A stretch of DNA of 64,000 bases from Isurus oxyrinchus (Eukaryota). The stretch covers positions 372,001-436,000 of the forward strand of contig JANJGN010000140.1 of assembly GCA_026770705.1 (NCBI GenBank), given 5' to 3'. Positions within the stretch are counted from its first letter, which is position 1; the number at the start of each line of letters is the position of its first letter. Below are positions 7,830 to 50,769 of this stretch, piece after piece. The translations under genes and the position numbers were made by a program. The notes under the pieces were generated by a model. That model searched no databases. It worked only from the letters and a program-made list of their open reading frames with translations, and was not told the DNA's origin.

Positions 7830-8760
7830 ACATCCAGACAAATAGGAGCAGGAGGAGGCCATTCGGCCTCTCGAGCCTGCCCCACCTATTCATTAAGATC
7901 ATGGCTGAGGTTCTACCTCAACTCCACCTTCCCACCCTCAGAGCCTTAAAATCTATCAATCTGAGTCTTGAGTATACCCAATGACATAGCATCCATAGCT
8001 CTCTGGGGTAGAGAATTCCAAAGATTCACAACCCTTTGAGTGAAGAAATTTCTCCTCATCTCAGTCCAAAATGGCTGACCTCTAATCCTTAGCCTGTGAC
8101 CCCACCCCACTCCCCCCACATTGTTCCAGACTCCTCTGCCAGGGTGGGGTTAACTGCCTCTTAGAATTGACCGTGTTAAACTCCCGAAGAATTTTGTACA
8201 TTTCAATGAGATCACCTCTCATTCTTCTAAACTCTAGAGAATATGGGGCCATTCTACTCGATCTCCCTTCATAGGACATCCCTCTCATCCCAGGAATCAG
8301 TTTAGTTTAAGTTAGGGATGGGGTTAGGGAGTTAGGGATGGGGTTATGGAGTTAAGGTTAGGGGTAGGGAGTTAGGGATGGGGTTAGGGTTTGGTGTAGG
8401 GAGTTAGGGATGGGGTTGAGATGTTAGGGTGGAGGTAGGGAGTTAGGGATGGGGTTAGGGCTGGAGTTAGGAGTTAGGGATGGTGTTGGAGAGTTAGGGA
8501 TGGGGTTATGGAGTGAGGATTAGGGATAGGGAGTTAGGGATGAGGTTAGGGTTGGGGTTGGGGTTAGGGGAAGGGTTAGGGGTTAGGGGTATGGTTAGGG
8601 ATCAAGAATTGTGCACAATACTTCAGGTGTAGTCTCACCAAAGACCTATATAATTATTTGAAGACTTCTTTACTTTTATATGCCAATCCGTTTGCAATAA
8701 AGGTGAACATACCATTTACCTTTCGAGTTCCTTGCTGTACCTACATGCTGACCAATATTT
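7830..8760 (-). mobile_element. CR1 LINE 3' fragment interrupted by a telomere-like repeat
   Basis: ORF MRGMSYEGRSSRMAPYSLEFRRMRGDLIEMYKILR. Confidence 0.75.
8302..8600 (+). repeat. Interstitial telomere-like (TTAGGG-variant) array
   Basis: Repeated gttagggatggggttagggag and ggttagggg. Confidence 0.8.
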
Positions 8761-9199
8761 CGCAGTTTCCCACCGTTTCCAACCAGGATCACAAGCGGGA
8801 CAGCCTCTCTCATGGGAGGGTCCCATTCTCTATTGAGCTGCCAGGAGGAGGGGTGGGGGGAACCTTGTAAATGCACATCAGGACAACCTAGAGTCATGAA
8901 AGGGCCTATCACTGCCCGTTGGGTCTCGCTGGCCCCACTCATTCCAAAACTAGGGAGCCCAGGGAAAGTAATGGAGGAAGGAGGGAGGATGGGGGGGGGG
9001 GGGGGGCCGTAAAGGCCTGAGGAGGGAGGTGGTGGGGGGGGGGGGGCGGGGGTGGGGGGGCGTGGTGAAGAGATGGAAGAACAGAAGAGCTACCTTTGTG
9101 CAGCCCAGACGGCATTCCACTGACAATGGCACAGATGTGTCATGTACTCTCATGGGACCCTGATGTGTATGAATTCAGATGGACACATCGCAAATTATG

Positions 9200-9920
9200 A
9201 AATATGAGCAGGAGCAGGCCACTCAGCCCCTTGAGCCTGTTCCGCCATTCAATAAGACCATGGCTCACCTGATTGTAACCTCAACACCACATTCCTGCCT
9301 AACCCCAATCACCTTTCAAACCCTTGTTAACCAAGAATCTATCTAGCTCTGCCTTAGAAATATTCAAAGACTCTGCGTCCACTGCCTTTTGAGGAAGAGA
9401 GCTCCAAAGACTCACGACCCTCTGAGAGAAAAAACATCTCCTAATCTCTGTCTTAAAAGAGCGATCCCTTATTTTTAAACAGCGACCCCTCGTTCTAGAT
9501 TCTCCCACAAGAGGAAACATCCTCTCCACATCCACCCTGTCAAGACACCTCAGGATCTTAAATGTTTCTTACACATCTAAATTCCAGTGGATACGTGCCT
9601 AACCTGTCCACCCTTTCCTCATACGACAACCCACGCATTCCTGGTATTAGCCTGGTAAACATCCTCTGAACTGCTGCCTTCAGACCTTTCCTTAAATAAG
9701 GTGACCAATACTGTACACAGTACTCCTGATACGGTCTCACCGGTGCCCCGTAAAACTGCAGCATAGCCTCCCTACAATCAATTCCCCTCGCAATAAACTA
9801 TAACATTCTATTAGCCTTCCTAATTAGATGATGTGCCTGCATTTTGTGATTCATGCACTAGGACACCCAGATCCCTCTGCATCTCAGAGCTCTGCAAACT
9901 CTCACCATTTAGATAATATA
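9200..9920 (-). mobile_element. CR1 LINE 3' fragment
   Basis: ORFs MDVERMFPLVGESRTRG..., LQFYGAPVRPYQEYCVQYWSPYLRK and QRDLGVLVHES. Confidence 0.85.
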
Positions 9921-9943
9921 ACTCGTACTTTCGGGAAGGAAAG

Positions 9944-10161
9944 TGTGATAGAGTTGATTTTCTAGGCAGCTTTGCTTGGTGGAAACGTTGGACTTTATTT
10001 ACAAGACGGCAGCAGTTACATGTGTGCAAAGGACTCTATAACGAAAGAAGAATTCTCTCCTCGAGGGTCCCCGTGCTTCTAATTCATTGGTTTATACAGT
10101 TCATGTTATTTTACAACACAGGCATACTCTTAAAGCGTTTATCAGAACTATAATTACTGCA
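9944..10161 (-). mobile_element. 3' LTR of the Gypsy element (~218 bp)
   Basis: TG...CA termini; AATAAA on the element strand (tttatt ~9994); preceded by a purine-rich PPT-like tract. Confidence 0.75.
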
Positions 10162-10830
10162 GCCCCCACCCACCACCACCCCCCCAACACACACACACCT
10201 CCCACTCCACCCGTAAACTTTTCTGTACCTTTTGTATTTTAGAGGAGATTTATCTCATTACATCACAATATTTACACAGGTCATCAAATTACAAGTTCAG
10301 TCTTTAAGATGGTTTCCCGATCCCTGCGGAACGTCGCAGCTCCTGACTTCCGATTATTTTGCAGGAACCACATGCTCTGGAACTGCATTAACATCAGATA
10401 CAGGCAGTTCAGTGTCTTCCACTCCAACAGAGACATCGGGCACGTCTGTCCTTGGCTGAGCAACTTCAACAGGAACCATAGGTTCAGCAATGGTTACAGG
10501 TGGAATATAATTTTGTTGGGATATCTCTCTTCCTCAATGATCCACATACTTACAGGTGATCCGCCCCTCCACTTCCATGTGGTATGACAATGGTCCGGTC
10601 ACAGAGCTTACTTTACCAGCTAGCCACTTCGGTCTTCCACCGACATTCCTTACACACACTGTTTCTCCAAGTAAATTGTTGCTCATGACTATGCCAATCA
10701 GGAGTTGCTTTTTGGTTCCCTTGACTTTTTTCCACCTTCCCCTCCAAATTGGGATTGTTCTGTATTGAAATAGGAAACGAGCAAGTTTAGTTTCTGATGA
10801 TTCACCTGTTAACTTTTTCATTCCTGCCTT

Positions 10831-11541
10831 TTATTGTCTTTTCAAGATCTTCCTCCTTTTTGTCCTCTGCTTTCTACCACAGAGTTTAGTCTTGGCCTTC
10901 CTCTTGACTTCACTGTCGGCCAGACTTCTCTCAGGTAGTTTCTCAACTTGTCTTAGTTCAGTAATTGAATTACCCATGACTTCATTATCTACTTGCATCT
11001 TGGACAGTTCTACGATCTTTCCTTTCAAGGTTCCTTTAGCTGCATTCAGCTGATTCTTCAGCTCTTCTGTCTCTTTCATGTATCTGTTGGCTTCCTCCTG
11101 GAACCTTGAACATTGCTGCGTCTTCTGTGCCAACTGGTTCTTCAGTTTGTTCATGGTGACGTTAAATTCTTCCTGCTTCTCTTTGTAATTTTCCAGAGGT
11201 ACAAATTTTGACCTGAGGGATCCTTGTAGTGTGTGAGGGTCTTTCAACAGGGTTTTTCTTTTCTTTGTGCGAAACTCATTCACTTCAACTTGAACTCTAA
11301 TTCAGCAGAGTCGCCTTGAGTTTCTTTTGCTGTTCTTGCATGTCATTGTTTAAAACAGTCTTCATTTCTTCAGGTTGCTGAATAGCTACACACTCCATTT
11401 GCATCCAATTGCGGTCCTTGGACTTTCCAGGCTCTTTCTGAAGGGCCTTGACTTGTTCCTTCTTCAACTCAGGAACTATTTCTGCTTCCTTTTGAAATCT
11501 CACTGGCCAATCAAGGTTAGTTTCCCTCAACCAGTTTCGAC
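10831..11541 (-). other. Captured cellular coiled-coil gene fragment (UACA/RAI14/ANKRD24-like) inside the Gypsy element, decayed
   Basis: Heptad-rich ORFs (LQGSLRSKFVPLENYKEKQEEFNVTMNKLKNQL; CVAIQQPEEMKTVLNNDMQEQQKKL) sit where RT/RNaseH/integrase core should be; no retroelement motifs. Confidence 0.6.
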
Positions 11542-13022
11542 TTAGAAGGCTTGGTCTAATACCATCACTGGTAGTTGTGCTGTTTGGTATCTATAATAAG
11601 GAGGTGCTCTGGTGATATATTTTACCTGGATTTCTTCGCCTGTGCACGTTTTCAACTTGGTAGCCGTTTGTTCCAAATTTAATTGTTGAGCACCTTTATT
11701 TAAATATTTGAAAGTGTGTTCTACTACTACAGTGATAGAAGCACCAATGTCTACTTCCATTATTAAGAATTTCCCATTCACCTGTAAAGTGACAGTGACT
11801 AGCTCTGCCTTCCCAACTCTCATGTTGAACAAGGATTAAATATCAGAATTGGTTGTTTCTGGCTCTTCCTCACTATATACTTCATTGGACTTTGTTTGTT
11901 GCCCGGAAGCCTGTTTTAATGTCGCTTTGCAATGTTTTAATATGTGTTCTCTTTTGCAACAAAAATAACATTCCACTTTTTTAAATTGCCAATCATTAGG
12001 AGTGTGATCGTTTCCACGTCGATAAAATTAGTTTTCAAATTTGCTAATAAACTGGTTCCTCAGTTTTCGGTTATTGGGGGCTGTTTCCCGCTTCACGGCG
12101 GAGTCCTGGATTTTCGTGCTCCTTTCAGTTGACCATTTCTGCCCAACTAGGAAAATGGCGCCATTTTGTGCACCTTGAATCGCTCGTGAATCCCTTCCAG
12201 CACTTTCCATCGCAAGCACTATTTCTAATGCTTTCTTAATATCAAGGTCCACTTCAGTCAGCAATCTTCACTGAATAGCATCCTCTTGCACGCCAGAGAC
12301 AAAAATGATCTCTGAGCATATCCTTCAGGCTTTCACCAAAATCACAATATTCCATTAGTTGTTTTACTTTCGCCACATGGGTAGCAATGGTCTCTCTCGG
12401 GGCTGTATTCAGTGAATTGAACCTGAACCTCTGCATTGTGACTGAGGGTTTGGGTTGAAAATGTTCCTTATTGTTACTAATTTACTGAGGGTCTTCAAGT
12501 CAGGGGCACTGGGGGTCGTCAAGCTTCGAATTAAACTGTAGGATTTGCCCCTATAAATACTCAGGAGAATCACTCTCCTCTTTTCCCTCCTCTGTGGTTA
12601 AAGGTACAATCCTATATTTATCAGAACTATAATTACTACAGAAAACCCTTTTATAGACCCACAGATATGTGGTTGACTCTAACCCTAACACTGACGGGTC
12701 ATTCAAAATTTGAAGGGTGATATTGACCTTGCCAGCAGATGCCCACATTCCTAAAAATAAATCCAATGGTGAATTCAGGAGATACTTCTTTACCCAAAGA
12801 TTGGGGAGAATGTGGAACTCGCATCCAGGGAATGGTTGAGGTGAATAGCATCGATGAATTTAAGGAGGAAGCAGGATAAACACACGAAGCAGAAAGAAAT
12901 AGAGGATATAGTGAAGATGGGGAGGGAGGGACCTCGTGTGGAGGAGAAATACTAGCATGGAACAGATGGGCCGAATGGCCTGTTTCCACAATGGCGAACG
13001 TCACTGAAAGCCCTCCAATTAC

Positions 13023-13132
13023 CTGTCGATGCTGATGGCACACAGGCCGAGGATTCTGGCTGTGCACAGCATCACATCCAGTGTCACAAAGATGTCACAG
13101 TTAACCCAGCTGAAACGCCACTCGCCAACCAC
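13023..13132 (-). pseudogene. DRD2: DRD2-like coding exon 2 (TM3), 110 bp
   Basis: ag|[36 protein letters not shown]+ag|gtaatt; keeps the TM3 Asp; absent from the ORF track. Confidence 0.93.
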
Positions 13133-13659
13133 CTTTAACCAGAGCAAAGTACAAACAGCATCAGCAACAGTTCACAGCCAGGTTAGCATCCCTTCAAACA
13201 AACCTTTCCACGAGATCACAGAACACCTCCAACCATCTGGAACTCTATATCCAGCCTTAAATCCAGATAAAAGATCTGCATTCCTACAGTGCCTTACCCT
13301 TTGGTTCTGACCTGAATCGTTAACTCTGTTTCTCTCTTCACAGATGCTGGGTCATTCCAGCATTTTCTGTTCTTATTTCGGATTTCCAGCGTCCTCAGTG
13401 TTTTGTTCTTCGACTGCCTTTGGGCACAAGACACCTAAGAGCAGTGCTTCTAAAACACTTTCGTTAGTAGATCACTTTTGCAGGGGGTGTGGGAGGGGCT
13501 GGGGAGGCTGCAGGGAACAGGGCCAAAGGGCCACCAACCGCTCCTACCATACGCACTTCCAGTAGTTACCCCCAAATAGGCTCATCAGAATTAACGGGAA
13601 GAATGGCTCCAAGGAATATGTTTATGGAAACTTAAGGTTCACCCAAACTCAATTTTATA

Positions 13660-14695
13660 ATTCTCATCCCTGTTTTCAAATCTTTCCTTGTACCCCCTGC
13701 CTATCTCTGGAACCTTCTCCAGCCCCTACAACCGCCACCCCCCCCACCCCCCCATCTCTGTAAACTCGTCCAGCCCCTGCAACGCTCCCTATCTCTGTAA
13801 CCTCCTCCAGCCCCTACAATGCTCCCTATCTCTGTAACCTCCTCCAGCCCCTACAACCTTTCCTATCTCTGTAACCTCTTTCAGTCCCTACAAACTTTCC
13901 TATCTCTGTAACCTCCTTCAGTCCCTACAACCTTTCCTATCTCTGTAACGTCCTCCAGTCCCTACAATGCTCCTTATCTCTGTAACCTCCTCCAGCCCCT
14001 ACAACCCTCCCTATCCCTGTAACCTCCTCCAGTCCCTACAGCTCTCCGTATCTCTGTAACCTCTTCCAGCCCACACAATCCTCCCTACCTCTGTAACTTC
14101 CTCTAGTCCCTAAAGCTTTTCCAATCTCTGTAATCTCCTCCAGTCCCTACAAACCTTCCTATCTCTGTAACCTCCTCTAGTCCTTAAAACCCTTCCTATC
14201 TCTGTAACCTCCTCCAGTCCCTACAACCTTTCCTATCTCTGTAACCTCCTCCAGTCCCTACAACCTTTCCTGTCTCTGTAACCTCCTCCAGTCCCTACAA
14301 CCATCCCCATCTCTGTAACCTCCTCCAGCCCCTACAACCCTCCTTATCTCTGTAACCTCCTTCCACCCACACAACCCTGTCTATCTCTGTAACCTCCTCC
14401 AGTCCCTACAATCATCCACATCTCTGTAACTCACTCCAGCCCCTACAACCCTCCCTATGTCTGGAACCTCCTCCAGCCCCTATCTCTCTCTCTCTTTCTT
14501 TCTATCTCTCTCTCTCTTCTGCTTTAAGACGTTCCTTAAAACCTCACTCTGTGACTGAGCTTTTGGTCACCGATCCCTCATATCTCCTGATGTGGCTTGG
14601 GGTCAAATATTGTTTGATAATCACTCCTGTGAGGCATCTTGGAGACACTTCATTAAATTGAAGGTGCTGTAGAATCATAAGTTGTTGTTGAAATT
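13660..14695 (+). mobile_element. L2-type LINE 3' end with an internal ~37-38 bp tandem expansion
   Basis: Unit cctcctccagcccctacaaccctccctatctctgtaa about 20 times (13690-14480), followed by an L2 3' UTR (tttaagacgttccttaaaacc...). Confidence 0.8.
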
Positions 14696-17512: not shown

Positions 17513-17771
17513 TATGTTTCTATACGGTCACGTTCAGTCTTGTGTTGTTCACCAATCGCCTGGTATTGAAATGGATGACCAGAAGAGAGACTTTGTTCTG
17601 GCTGTGACTGATGCGCAAGTGACTGGCTCCAGGAAGGGAAGTGGGAAAAGGACATAGGACGTCTTTGGCGGTGAGTGGGATCATTGAGGCATGATGTCGG
17701 TAGCTGCGAGGCCCAACGCCCTTCGGGGCCCTCCCACCTATCGATACGCGGGACTGAACTAACGGTTTTGC

Positions 17772-18050
17772 CTCTAGATAGATGACCCAGGGCATCACCA
17801 GCATGGCCACCAGTAGGTCTGTCACAGCCAGGCTGATGATGAGGTAGTTGGTGGTGGTCTGCAGTGCCATCTCGCTGGGCACTGCCATGCACACCAGCAC
17901 ATTGCCAAACACCACCACGAAGATCAGGAGGCTGAGCAATGCCACGTAGTAATTGTAGCGATGCCTCTACTGCTCACCGGTCGAGTCGCTCCAGTGCCCC
18001 AGCTCCCTCATCTGCGAGTCATTCAGGGCAGCCATGTTTGGAGCAGCCAT
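17772..18050 (-). pseudogene. DRD2: DRD2-like coding exon 1 (N-terminus, TM1-TM2)
   Basis: [92 protein letters not shown]; in-frame TAG at 17967-17969; donor is GC (gcaaaa) rather than GT. Confidence 0.92.
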
Positions 18051-26103: not shown

Positions 26104-27575
26104 ATGGCCACGGGGGTGGTGCCAGAGGACTGGAGAACAGCTAATGTGGTTCTGCTATATAAGAAGGGTTGTAGAGATAAGCCAGGGAACTACAGGCTAG
26201 TGAATATCACGTCAGTGGTAGGGAAACTATTGGAGAAAGCTCTGGAGGAGAGTGCCTATCTCTACGTGGAGAAGCAAGGTTTGATCAGGGATAGTTAGCA
26301 TGGCTTTGTCAGAGGGACGTCATGTCAAACAAATTTGATTGAATTTTTTGAGGAGGTGTCCAGGTGTGTCAATGAGGGTAGTGTAGTTGATGCAGTTTAT
26401 ATGGATTTCAGCAACACCTTTGACAAGGTTCCACATGGGAGACTTATAAAGAAGGCAAATACACATAGGATACAGGGTAATTTGATAAGGTGGATTCAAA
26501 ATTGGCTTAGTTGTAGAAGACAAAGGGTGATGACAGAAGGATGCTTTAGTGACTGGAAGTCAAGGTCCAGTGGCGTACCACAGGGATCTGTGCTGGGTCC
26601 CCTATTATTCATGATTTATATAAATGACATAGATGACTATGTAGGGGGTAAGTTTAGTAAGTTTGTGGATGACACAAAGATTGGCTGGGTGGTTAAAAGT
26701 GAGGTTGAGTGTCTTGGACTACAGGAAGATATAGACGGGATGGTCAATTGGGCAGATAAGTGGCAGATGGAATTTAACCCTGAAAAGTGCGAGGTGATAC
26801 ACTTTGGAAGGAGTAATTTCACAAAGAAGTATTCAATGAACTGCGTTACACTAGGAAGTTCTGAGGAACAAAGGGACCTTGGCATGTGTGTCCATAGATC
26901 TTTGAAGGCACAGGGGCATGTTAGTGGGATGGTGAAAAAGGCATATGGGACGCTTGCCTTCATCAATCGAGGCATAGATTACAAAAGTAGGGAGGTCATG
27001 TTGGAGTTGTATAGAACCTTAGTGAGGCCACAGCTGTGTGCAGTTCTGGTTGCCACATTATAGGAAGGATCTGATCGCACTGGATGGGGTGCAGAAGAGA
27101 TTCACCAGGATGTTGCCTATGATGAAACATTTAAGTTATGAAGAGAGGTTGGATAGACTTGGGTTGTTTTCGTTGGAGCAGAGAAGACTGAGGGGCCACC
27201 TTATCGAGTGTACAAGATTATGAGGGGCACGGACAGGGTGGATAGGGAGCAGCTGTTCCCCTTAGTTCAAGGGTCAGTCACGAGGGGACATAAGTTCAAG
27301 GTGAGGGGCAGGAGGTCTAGGGGGAATGTAAAGAAAAACATTTTTACCCAGAGGGTGGTGACAGTCTGGAATGCGTTGCCTGGGAGGGTGGTGGAGGCAG
27401 GTTGCCTAACATCCTTTAAAAAGTACCCGGATGAGCACTTGGCACGTCATAACATTCAAAGCAATGGGCCAAGTGCTGATAAATGGGATTAGGTAGGTAG
27501 GTCAGGTGTTTCTCACGTGTCGGTGCAGACTTGATAGGCCAAAGGGCCTCTTCTGCACTGTATGATTCTGTGATG
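26104..27575 (+). mobile_element. CR1 LINE, 5'-truncated, RT domain and 3' UTR
   Basis: VPEDWRTANV, YMDFSNTFDKVPH, GVPQGSVLGPLLF, KFVDDTK; tail tgattctgtgat. Confidence 0.92.
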
Positions 27576-31341: not shown

Positions 31342-33053
31342 GATAATAGAGGAGGAGGATTTGCAGTCAGATAAAGCAAACCAAACCTCACGTCTGACAG
31401 GGTCAATCGGTTCATTGGAATCTGAAGATTCATACATCTGAAAGGATTTAATTGACTGCCTCAGCTGGAAACTGGTGAGAGGCTGCTTACCTGCTCCTCC
31501 TGTAGGAAGGGATTGATGGAGCTGGTAAACATGCTGACACGACAGCGAACTCACAATAGCGAGAGACCGTTCACCTGCTCAGTGTGTGGGAAGAAATTCA
31601 TGTGTTCATCCAACCGGCTGGCACACCAGCTTGATCACATTTATGAGGATCCTCTTCAATACTCTGACTCTGAGAAAAGCTTTGAAATCTCCAAGGAACT
31701 GGCCCAACACCAGCAAGTTCACACTGACGAGAGACCGTTCAGCTGCTCCCACTGTGGGAAGAGGTTCAGGCTGTCCTCCTGCCTCGTGGATCACCAGCTC
31801 CTTCACACACACGAGAGGCCGTTCAGCTGCTCCCAATGTGGGGAGTCATTCAGCAAGTCAGTGCATCTCACTGAGCACCAGCAAGTTCACACCAAGGACA
31901 GGCCATTCAGCTGCTCCCAGTGTGGGAAGAGATTCGCTCAGTCCTTCCACTACACTGAGCACCAATTGGTCCACTCAGAAAAGAGACCTTTTAAATGTAC
32001 TGAATGTGAGAAGACCTTCAAAAGAAGCATTAATTTGCTGAGACAACGGTGCATTCACACTGGGGAGAGGCCGTTCCCCTGCTCCGTGTGTGGGAAGACA
32101 TTCACTCATTCAATTCACCTTCTGACACACAAGCGTGTTCACACCAGGGAGAGGCCATTCCTCTGCTCTGTGTGTGGGAAGACATTCACTCGATTTTCAC
32201 ACCTTTTGACACACGAGAGTATTCACACTGGAGAGAGGCCGTTCACCTCCGCATGTAGGAAGGGATTCGTTCAGCCAGCTGACCTGCTGAAGCACCAGTG
32301 GGTGCACACTGGGGAGAAGCCATTCACTTGCTCGCTGTGTGGGAAGGGATTCACTCGATCCTGCTATCTGCTGAAGCACCAGCGAGTTCACACCGGGGAG
32401 AGGCCGTTCCTCTGTTCCATGTGTGGGAAGAGTTTCCCTCGTTTGTCCCACCTTGTGATACACGAGCATGTTCACACTGGGGAGAGGCCGTACCTTTGCC
32501 CCGTGTGCAAGAAGAGATTTACTTGTTTACAACACCTGCTGAGACACTGGACTATTCACACTGGGGAGAGGTGGTTCACATGCCCTGTGTGTGGGAAGGG
32601 TTTCACTGAGTCATCCAGCCTCCAGAGACACTGACGCACTCACACTGAGGACAGGCTGTTCACCTGCTCTGTGTGTAGCAAGAGATTTGCTCAGTTGTCC
32701 TACTACACTGAACACCAACGCGTTCACACTGATAAGAGACCTTTTCAATGTTCTGAATGCAGAAAGAGCTTTAAAAGAAGCAATGACCTGCTGAAACACC
32801 AACGCACTCTCACCAGGGAGAGCCGTTCCTCTGTTCCGAGTGTGGGAAGGGATTCGCTCATTCGTTCGGCCTGCTGAGGCATCAATGTACTCACAGCGGG
32901 AAGAAGCTGTTCACCTGCTCTGAGTGTGGGAAAGGATTCATTGATTCATCCCGCCTGCTGAGACACCAGCGAGTTCACACTGGAGAAAAACCGTTCACCT
33001 GCTCTGTGTGTGAGAAGCGATTTACTCAGTCTTACAGCCTGCTGAAACATTAG
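31342..33053 (+). pseudogene. Tandem C2H2 zinc-finger gene, truncated or decaying (open frame 31516-32634)
   Basis: Acceptor tttacag at 31335-31341; HTGERPF linkers. TGA at 32632-32634 interrupts a finger; fingers continue in frame, frameshift ~32820, TAG 33051-33053; several Cys/His losses. Confidence 0.85.
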
Positions 33054-33330
33054 TGGCTTCACATGTTACTGACAAAGTTAGAATCGGTTGTTGCTGCTAA
33101 GAATCACGTCCAGCACTGAACCTTTTCTCCTTTCTAACTTTAGATTATTTCAGTTCTCAGACCTTCAGTTACTCTCATAGACAAGTCCCAGCTCCCCCTA
33201 CCTTCCCGAGTGTCTGTCTTAGCCTTGAGATCCAGGGAAGGTATCAGTAACATGCACTGGATCAGGAAACCCAAACTCAGTCTGTTAATTAGTTCAGCTA
33301 CTGGACTTAGTGTGTGTACGTAGCATCTCA

Positions 33331-35408: not shown

Positions 35409-36543
<1,135 letters not shown>

Positions 36544-37330: not shown

Positions 37331-37394
37331 CTGCTGTTAATCACATTGAGGACTGAACCATGTTGACTTTGACATTGGGGTTTATTTCTGCTGA

Positions 37395-50229: not shown

Positions 50230-50769
50230 CTGGGAAAGAATGGCCGATTGAACAAGTTAGACTCTGTGATTTGTGATCATTAAGTAACCAAACAACTCAA
50301 AATTTGACTATAACTATAAACATGTCCAACTAAAACCCACATCCACATTTCATCGTTTATTATTTCCATCATTTGATGGCCCTCGCTTGTCGGTTCCCTC
50401 TTTAGAAACCCACACCTCATTTTTCTGCCTCTATCCCATTACTAAAAGAGAACATTTTGATATCATTTGAATGACGTACCTTTCATTGGATTAAAGTGGA
50501 AGAGCAGAGGATTTTCCCCATTATTTCGCCACCATTTATTTCTCAATCAGCAGCACTTGGTGACAGAGAAATTGTCTCGTCATTTATTTCATTGCAGTTT
50601 GGAAATTGGCTTTGTTCAAATTGACTGAAGCCCCCTCCCCTCTCCACGTCCCCCCAAAACAAAGAATTGCAAAAATCCTTCGAAAGTACCTTTGTAATGG
50701 TACCTACATAATGACCATAGAACCCTAAATTGAATACCAGTGACAGTAAGTACGACATTTCCATTCGTA

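What the first reader, a model, noticed from the sequence alone, without database searches (positions are those of the whole stretch)
9944..12640. Gypsy LTR retrotransposon whose RT/RNaseH is replaced by a captured host coiled-coil gene fragment
Seen: on one strand, in order, an LTR start, gag, protease, ~710 bp of non-retroelement heptad-rich coding sequence (10831-11541), integrase C-terminus, PPT-like tract and 3' LTR, all within a GAAAG/GAAAA TSD. The insert is in sense orientation and intronless. It has repeated VP/VA-x3-EE/KE-x-K/Q motifs, which I recall from the coiled-coil region of UACA/RAI14/ANKRD24. Inference: mRNA capture by template switching, as in transducing retroviruses, giving a non-autonomous gene-carrying Gypsy element. 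It is now decayed by stops and frameshifts.
Basis: partly seen in the sequence, partly recalled or inferred. Interest (0 to 1): 0.75.

Follow-up and report, generated by a model that had tools for sequence, protein, structure and literature searches.

The report
Shark retrotransposon family carrying UACA fragment
This is one decayed copy of a shark jumping-gene family that swapped its own copying enzymes for a piece of the host gene UACA and then appears to have spread to many places, a known kind of gene capture at an unusually large scale.

Summary
The chimera is real. It is a decayed Gypsy-type LTR element on the minus strand (TG…CA ends, GAAAG/GAAAA target duplication) in a shark genome, with no recognisable RT or RNase H. 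The insert matches shark UACA, but only ~455 bp is demonstrably UACA (11404-10951), not 710. It consists of two UACA segments joined in frame across a ~150-codon gap, followed by a 120-bp tail that is not UACA. It is not a one-off. In public DNA runs the insert is as deep as gag, protease and the integrase end, about 100-500 times the locus-specific bin, and diverged contigs bridge the protease-UACA junction. Related short ORFs occur at two basking-shark loci, in a catshark and on an unnamed contig. Best reading: a non-autonomous Gypsy family that captured UACA, most likely by RT template switching, and was then amplified by a helper element. 'Intronless' does not prove mRNA capture, because this part of UACA probably lies in one giant exon. 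Junction microhomology and the target duplications of other copies could not be tested. The mechanism is known (Tan et al. 2016); the scale and cross-order spread are not found in my searches.

The parts
9939..9943 (.). left target-site duplication GAAAG
   Evidence: 4 of 5 match to the right copy, chance 0.018
9944..10161 (-). 3' LTR, 218 bp, TG...CA, AATAAA at 9999-9994
   Evidence: start 96% identical to the 5' remnant; an identical contig 9925-10136 in run X2
10162..10215 (-). G-rich PPT-like tract with a (GT)n expansion; lies in the lowest-depth, locus-specific bin
   Evidence: sequence; bin 10131-10227 depth 74.5/114.4/18.4
10290..10830 (-). integrase C-terminal remnant (after the catalytic core), broken by stops; lower edge approximate
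   Evidence: recalled Gypsy motifs and position only; no Pfam/PDB hit; as deep as gag in DNA runs
10831..10950 (-). non-UACA tail of the insert ORF, source unknown, shared with P0004, P0005, P0007, P0008; ends in a stop directly before the integrase-like stretch, same frame
   Evidence: not UACA: 116-290 of 300 shuffles as high; tail-vs-tail 0-1 of 300 in all 10 pairs
10951..11061 (-). UACA segment 2 (residues 1142-1178 of Scyliorhinus UACA P0003), 18 of 37 identical
11064..11404 (-). UACA segment 1 (P0003 residues 877-991), frame broken near 11300 in this copy
   Evidence: P0005 spans this point as one ORF
11405..11500 (-). 5' junction zone, unassigned (Gypsy pol linker or a further short UACA piece); same open frame as the protease end and the start of UACA segment 1
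   Evidence: bridged by 4 listed diverged contigs in 3 runs
11500..11835 (-). aspartic protease, decayed, frame break near 11545-11556
   Evidence: Pfam PF13650 E=0.012, PF13975 E=0.037, both under cut-off; recalled C-terminal motif
11836..12597 (-). gag, 5'-truncated and broken, CCHC knuckle 11970-11929
   Evidence: Atlas Retrotrans_gag 0.95
12598..12640 (-). 5' LTR remnant (first ~43 nt); rest of LTR, primer-binding site and gag start absent
   Evidence: 115 (X4) and 105 (X2) contigs leave the window at 12598 with sequence matching the 3' LTR at 10100-10129 in 24 of 30 positions
12641..12645 (.). right target-site duplication GAAAA

Best explanation
The locus is one old, dead copy of a multi-copy, non-autonomous Gypsy family of sharks. 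Step 1 (inferred): during reverse transcription in a Gypsy particle, RT switched from the element RNA just after the protease onto co-packaged UACA RNA, perhaps onto a second template that gave the tail, and back into the integrase C-terminal region. RT, RNase H and the integrase core were thereby replaced. Step 2 (inferred from homolog structure): the captured piece was later shortened by an in-frame internal deletion of ~150 codons. P0007 keeps UACA sequence upstream of that joint, while the window ORF, P0004 and P0005 lack it, and P0008 appears to. Step 3 (multi-copy state shown, mechanism inferred): keeping both LTRs and the PPT, the chimera was copied in trans by an autonomous relative to many dispersed sites. 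Step 4 (shown/inferred): this copy inserted with a 5-bp target duplication, apparently before organisms A and B separated, lost most of its 5' LTR and gag start, and decayed. It has no present coding function.
For: UACA is the only named host match, 55-58%. The exhaustive search of 1.84 billion representatives gave 5 hits: four short ORFs with the same tail and one full-length ray UACA; no full-length host protein has the deleted layout. Median summed depth over 5 insert bins vs 10 gag/protease bins vs 5 integrase bins vs the locus-specific bin: X4 22,598 / 13,135 / 10,829 / 74.5; X2 36,769 / 15,589 / 19,146 / 114.4; X9 6,136 / 2,589 / 2,752 / 18.4, so insert/unique = 94-532. 51-101 contigs per DNA run carry another letter at single positions 11401, 11462, 11481 and 11520. 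Of 32 listed pieces, four bridge or cross the junction zone with 31-39 other letters: X2 11306-11532, X2 and X4 11344-11556 (one sample, probably one contig), X23 11298-11553. A contig links 10597-10754 to 10870-11010 (X23 record 9; the same joint in 2 X4 contigs and 1 X2 contig). Depth falls from 10,672/15,003/1,939 to 552/131/90 just outside the right end, so the copies do not share this flank. P0004 and P0005 lie on contigs of different length (250 and 212 Mb) in Cetorhinus. In a tree, the window ORF and both Cetorhinus ORFs form one group (96/95) among shark UACAs; identity is 53-59% to shark UACA and 42-46% to ray UACA. Replacement of internal ORFs by partial host sequence, with secondary retroposition, is the pattern in Tan et al. 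2016.
Against: No exon junction is known inside the insert: none of 26 isoform/ortholog comparisons shows an indel between residues 389 and 1312, human residue ~1234-1243 is in exon 16, and exon 16 is recalled as ~2.7 kb. An RNA origin is therefore unproven. Microhomology could not be tested at DNA level. Summed contig depth is not a copy number (tool caveat), and only 32 of about 64,300 pieces were shown. No other copy was seen with its own target duplication. The genomic context of P0004, P0005, P0007 and P0008 is unknown. Insert depth is about twice that of the Gypsy body, and X23 record 12 aligns only over 11128-11382 of its 738 nt, so the insert may also sit in other backbones. Integrase and protease-end calls rest on recall. 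The tree has no outgroup, and the shark UACA branching is unresolved.
Confidence: 0.72

Rival explanations
1. Same multi-copy family, but the capture was DNA-level: a break inside a Gypsy copy was repaired from genomic UACA (synthesis-dependent gap repair or ectopic conversion), and the product then retrotransposed.
For: The captured part probably lies in one exon, so it looks the same under either route. No splice evidence.
Against: Sense orientation and an open frame from the protease end into UACA (ORF 11297-11590), and replacement rather than interruption of pol, fit the template-switch pattern. Earlier AI notes of spliced CLIP1 and SUDS3 captures in cartilaginous fishes are unchecked leads only.
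Confidence: 0.14
2. Two-step origin: the insert came from an earlier UACA retro-fragment, a shark-specific UACA paralogue or another mobile element that already joined UACA to the tail, and it entered one or several Gypsy backbones.
For: The tail is shared by all five short ORFs but is not UACA. The Atlas gave only generic coiled-coil look-alikes. The insert is about twice as deep as the Gypsy body.
Against: No full-length protein with this layout among 1.84 billion representatives or in the 274-2000 aa search (weak evidence).
Confidence: 0.1
3. A single LINE-made UACA retrocopy that inserted later into this one Gypsy copy.
For: CR1-like LINEs are abundant in the window.
Against: No poly(A) or long target duplication; pol is missing rather than split; many diverged contigs share the junction zone; P0004 ends at the same stop as the window ORF.
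Confidence: 0.02
4. The insert is a native Gypsy accessory ORF, and its likeness to UACA is a coiled-coil composition artefact.
For: Coiled coils give many weak Pfam hits.
Against: 42 of 68 identical residues, collinear with one UACA stretch; 0 of 300 composition-preserving shuffles reach the score (229 vs max 79); closer to shark than to ray UACA.
Confidence: 0.02

Closest known systems
LTR-mediated retrocopies of animals (Tan et al. 2016, Genome Res, PMC5131818; abstract and sections 5, 6, 9 read)
   Same: Partial host coding sequence replaces internal ORFs of an LTR element; no poly(A) or own target duplication; the chimera can be re-retroposed as a non-autonomous element.
   Different: There the cases are young, mostly single-locus or at a few sites, defined by intron loss and microsimilarity. 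Here intron loss and microsimilarity are untestable, the family looks like hundreds of diverged copies, and related ORFs occur in two shark orders.
Maize Bs1 (as described in the Discussion of PMC5131818; primary papers not read)
   Same: Multi-source host coding fragments inside an LTR element, with shared switch points among copies.
   Different: Bs1 has 1-5 copies and three identified parent genes. Here one parent (UACA) is identified, the tail source is unknown, and amplification seems about two orders larger.
Transducing retroviruses (v-onc capture; recalled, no paper read)
   Same: Host sequence replaces replication genes in frame; helper-dependent spread.
   Different: No env, no evidence of infection, and no evidence that the captured protein was ever made or selected.
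Mag-type Gypsy (Metaviridae) elements of fishes (clade label recalled from gag/protease motifs)
   Same: Short TG...CA LTRs, 5-bp target duplication, Retrotrans_gag-like capsid with a CCHC knuckle, aspartic protease, PPT.
   Different: RT, RNase H and integrase core are absent, so clade membership by RT phylogeny cannot be tested.

Membership tests
Gypsy/Ty3 LTR retrotransposon | Two LTRs with TG...CA termini and a 4-6 bp target duplication | tested here: met
   5' LTR is only a 43-nt remnant; duplication 4 of 5
Gypsy/Ty3 LTR retrotransposon | gag and aspartic protease homology | tested here: met
   Atlas Retrotrans_gag 0.95, CCHC knuckle, Pfam protease E=0.012 under cut-off: met but weak
Gypsy/Ty3 LTR retrotransposon | Domain order PR-RT-RH-IN with integrase last | tested here: inconclusive
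   RT/RH not recognised; integrase end identified by recalled motifs only, with no database hit
Gypsy/Ty3 LTR retrotransposon | PPT before the 3' LTR; primer-binding site after the 5' LTR | tested here: inconclusive
   G-rich tract present; PBS region deleted in this copy
Mag clade | RT-based phylogenetic placement | not testable with these tools
   no RT in the element; no intact relative retrieved
LTR-mediated retrocopy (Tan et al. 2016) | Host coding sequence replacing internal ORFs between LTR-element parts | tested here: met
LTR-mediated retrocopy (Tan et al. 2016) | No poly(A) tail or own target duplication | tested here: met
LTR-mediated retrocopy (Tan et al. 2016) | Intron loss relative to the parent gene | tested here: inconclusive
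   captured part probably within one large exon (exon size recalled)
LTR-mediated retrocopy (Tan et al. 2016) | Microsimilarity at switch points | not testable with these tools
   no UACA DNA or parent-element DNA available; the internal joint shares two residues (LK) at protein level
Non-autonomous LTR family (secondary retroposition) | Many dispersed copies sharing the chimeric junctions | tested here: met
   depth, contig counts, bridging contigs and depth drop at the right flank; indirect
Non-autonomous LTR family (secondary retroposition) | Different target duplications at different copies | not testable with these tools
   no genome held; individual flanks not listed

The most novel reading that the evidence does not exclude
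Gypsy elements of cartilaginous fishes repeatedly captured host coiled-coil exons in frame with Gag-protease, and the captured coil was kept by selection on the element (for example as an oligomerisation or trafficking module that helps a helper-dependent element get into particles). The UACA family would then be a long-lived 'transducing retrotransposon' with a functional accessory protein, present before lamniform and carcharhiniform sharks separated, and some copies (basking-shark P0005, an open 177-aa frame with two RefSeq accessions) might still be expressed or co-opted.
Probability: 0.15. Interest if true: 0.82.

Novelty: new variant of a known kind. Interest (0 to 1): 0.55.

Why it matters
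It would be a vertebrate case in which an LTR-captured host gene fragment became a high-copy repeat family across shark lineages, far beyond the 1-5 copies described for Bs1 or the few sites in Drosophila (PMC5131818). Such families escape standard retrocopy counts: the VGP pipeline demands an exon-junction-crossing alignment and filters repeat-masked candidates (PMC13320880, passage in section 43). They can also inflate annotation with 'uncharacterized' coiled-coil genes (P0004, P0005, P0007). Hundreds of copies make an open question testable: is cargo captured by a non-autonomous LTR element neutral filler or under purifying selection during amplification?

Tried and rejected
No whole genome was held, so genome-wide junction BLAST was impossible. 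A protease-fragment search for an intact parent polyprotein gave 0 of 66 candidates. Integrase and insert queries in viral contigs and insert queries in metagenome contigs gave no confirmed locus. A 21-nt LTR-tip pattern gave 2 metagenome loci: L001 is bacterial coding DNA and neither matches the element interior, so these are chance. PDB searches of protease and integrase fragments gave only chance hits. Rfam: 0 matches in 9000-13600. The profile search at 50-310 aa found no ORFs beyond the same four. The idea that the tail is diverged UACA 1200-1330 was rejected by shuffles; its source stays unknown (generic coiled coils). The idea that UACA starts at 11541 was rejected. The left and right flanks belong to different repeats, so an empty-site continuity test failed. 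Expression: no RNA holder was listed. Run X23, only guessed to be RNA, holds diverged family contigs, but DNA may be in it, so it is not used as expression evidence. Earlier-findings look-ups by place and sequence were empty. Literature: 0 papers for UACA+shark+retrotransposon, 0 for shark+genome+LTR+Gypsy+retrocopies, 1 work for cartilaginous+retrocopies+LTR+shark (UACA occurs 0 times in its main text; supplements not examined). Searches were seen as listings only, apart from the three papers opened. The library lacks most subscription journals, and Repbase/Dfam were not searchable, so a repeat-library entry for this family cannot be excluded.

Full report
Setting. The window is cartilaginous-fish DNA: it holds immunoglobulin heavy-chain constant-like exons at 47.4-50.3 kb and CR1-like LINE pieces (labels recalled from the translations), and the insert's best named relatives are shark proteins. 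No whole genome is held.

Anatomy. On the minus strand the element runs from 12640 to 9944. The ends read TG...CA and are flanked by GAAAG and GAAAA; a 4-of-5 match arises in 1.8% of random pairs. The 3' LTR is 218 bp with an AATAAA. The 5' LTR matches it over 25 nt at 96%. Laid contigs show that it extends to 12598, where 115 (X4) and 105 (X2) contigs leave the window with sequence matching the 3' LTR at 10100-10129 in 24 of 30 positions. This copy has therefore lost most of its 5' LTR, its primer-binding site and the gag start. gag is supported by the Atlas (Retrotrans_gag, 0.95) and by a CCHC knuckle at 11970-11929. The protease is weakly supported (Pfam E=0.012, under cut-off). The integrase C-terminus has no database support and is named from recalled motifs and its position before a G-rich tract and the 3' LTR. 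No RT or RNase H was recognised, and only ~670 bp separate the protease end from the integrase-like stretch. All frames are broken.

The insert. ORF 10834-11301 hits only UACA among 806 long-protein candidates (3 hits, 55-58%, best E 4.5e-21). Gapped alignment shows a mosaic. Window 11404-11064 equals Scyliorhinus UACA 877-991 (42 of 68 identical in the core). The frame then jumps ~150 codons to UACA 1142-1178 (window 11061-10951), with the residues LK on both sides of the joint. Three segments each beat 300 of 300 composition-preserving shuffles against each of three shark UACAs. The last 120 bp are not UACA, 11503-11405 is ambiguous, and 11590-11492 is not UACA and carries a recalled protease-end motif. 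So ~455 bp is proven UACA. The protease end and the first UACA segment share one stop-free frame (ORF 11297-11590). There is no poly(A) run and no insert-specific duplication over 7 nt.

Not a single event. The exhaustive representative search returned 5 proteins: two basking-shark ORFs on different large contigs (P0004, 68%; P0005, 56%), ray UACA, a Scyliorhinus torazame ORF (P0007) and an unnamed ENA ORF (P0008). All four short ORFs share the non-UACA tail (0-1 of 300 shuffles in all 10 pairs). P0004 and P0005 share the internal deletion and P0008 appears to; P0007 keeps the undeleted UACA start; P0004 ends at the same stop as the window ORF. Their genomic context could not be fetched. In DNA runs of organisms A (X4 and X2, one sample) and B (X9), laid at 80% likeness, insert bins are 94-532 times deeper than the locus-specific bin and have higher medians than gag/protease and integrase bins. 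51-101 contigs per DNA run differ from the window at single positions in and beside the 5' junction zone. Four of 32 listed pieces cross that zone with 31-39 other letters, and one joint links integrase-side and UACA-side sequence in 5 contigs of 3 runs. Depth collapses outside the right end, arguing for dispersed copies rather than a duplicated segment. Caveats: summed depth is not a copy number; only the longest pieces are shown; bridging pieces reach only ~45 nt into the protease end; no second target duplication was seen. An identical contig in X2 (9925-10136) and a 97% contig in X9 across the locus-specific tract (10136-10431) suggest that both organisms carry this very insertion.

Direction and age. 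On 114 columns the window ORF and the two Cetorhinus ORFs group together (96/95) and attach on the galeomorph side of a Heptranchias+ray pair (92/92). Identities are 53-59% to shark and 42-46% to ray UACA (P0007 and P0008 left out as too short, no outgroup). Since UACA is a full-length ankyrin-coiled-coil host gene in all these species, host-to-element transfer is the simple reading. A shared tail in a lamniform and a carcharhiniform suggests an old origin if inheritance was vertical (inference).

How it most likely arose. Template switching by RT onto co-packaged UACA RNA, then amplification in trans, is the best reading (0.72). It matches Tan et al. 2016, where host sequence replaces internal ORFs and chimeras re-retropose (abstract and sections 5, 6, 9 read). 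None of 26 isoform/ortholog comparisons shows an indel between UACA residues 389 and 1312, a human frameshift at residue 1234 stops in exon 16 (PMC12881209, 3 passages), and that exon is recalled as ~2.7 kb. DNA-level capture followed by amplification therefore stays open (0.14), as does a two-step origin that explains the foreign tail and the insert's roughly twofold excess depth (0.10). A late LINE retrocopy and a native-ORF artefact are rejected (0.02 each).

Novelty. The mechanism is known. I found no paper on UACA-bearing elements or LTR retrocopies in sharks, within a library that lacks most subscription journals and repeat databases. Earlier AI notes report similar captures of CLIP1, SUDS3 and KMT2D in cartilaginous fishes. 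They are unchecked leads, but they suggest that this is one case of a recurring pattern rather than a unique event. What sets it apart from published cases is apparent amplification into a large family spanning shark orders, and a cargo that exon-junction-based retrocopy surveys would miss (PMC13320880, 12 passages read). Whether the cargo was ever functional is untested. Verdict: new variant of a known kind, interest 0.55; 0.82 if selection on the captured coil is shown (probability 0.15).

Noticed in passing
window 47393-50296 (-): Four ORF stretches that translate like immunoglobulin heavy-chain constant domains, the last with a secretory-type tail (IgM/IgW-like; label recalled).
   Followed up: no
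window 17523-17966 (-): Isolated stretch translating like the first transmembrane helices of a dopamine D2-type receptor (label recalled); possibly an exon or pseudogene fragment.
   Followed up: no
window 31456-33070 (+) and 35433-36170 (-): Two C2H2 zinc-finger arrays in opposite orientation.
   Followed up: no
window 26105-27574 and 37394-38850: Two CR1/L2-like RT-encoding LINE pieces, 85% identical over 1.5 kb, inverted.
   Followed up: no
window 13640-14568: 37-bp tandem array, about 25 units, 1 kb from the element.
   Followed up: no
window 8290-8601: Degenerate TTAGGG-like repeat with a 20-bp period, resembling an interstitial telomere-derived array.
   Followed up: no
P0005 (Cetorhinus LOC144678955): Open 177-aa frame of the rearranged UACA piece with two RefSeq accessions, which hints at transcript support; candidate expressed or co-opted copy.
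   Followed up: partly
P0007 residues 42-120: Longest version of the non-UACA tail, a predicted coiled coil of unknown source; possibly a second captured gene.
   Followed up: partly
joint 11407-12139: Contigs in X4 and X2 skip 731 nt and join gag sequence directly to the start of UACA segment 1, suggesting further deleted variants of the family that lack the protease.
   Followed up: no
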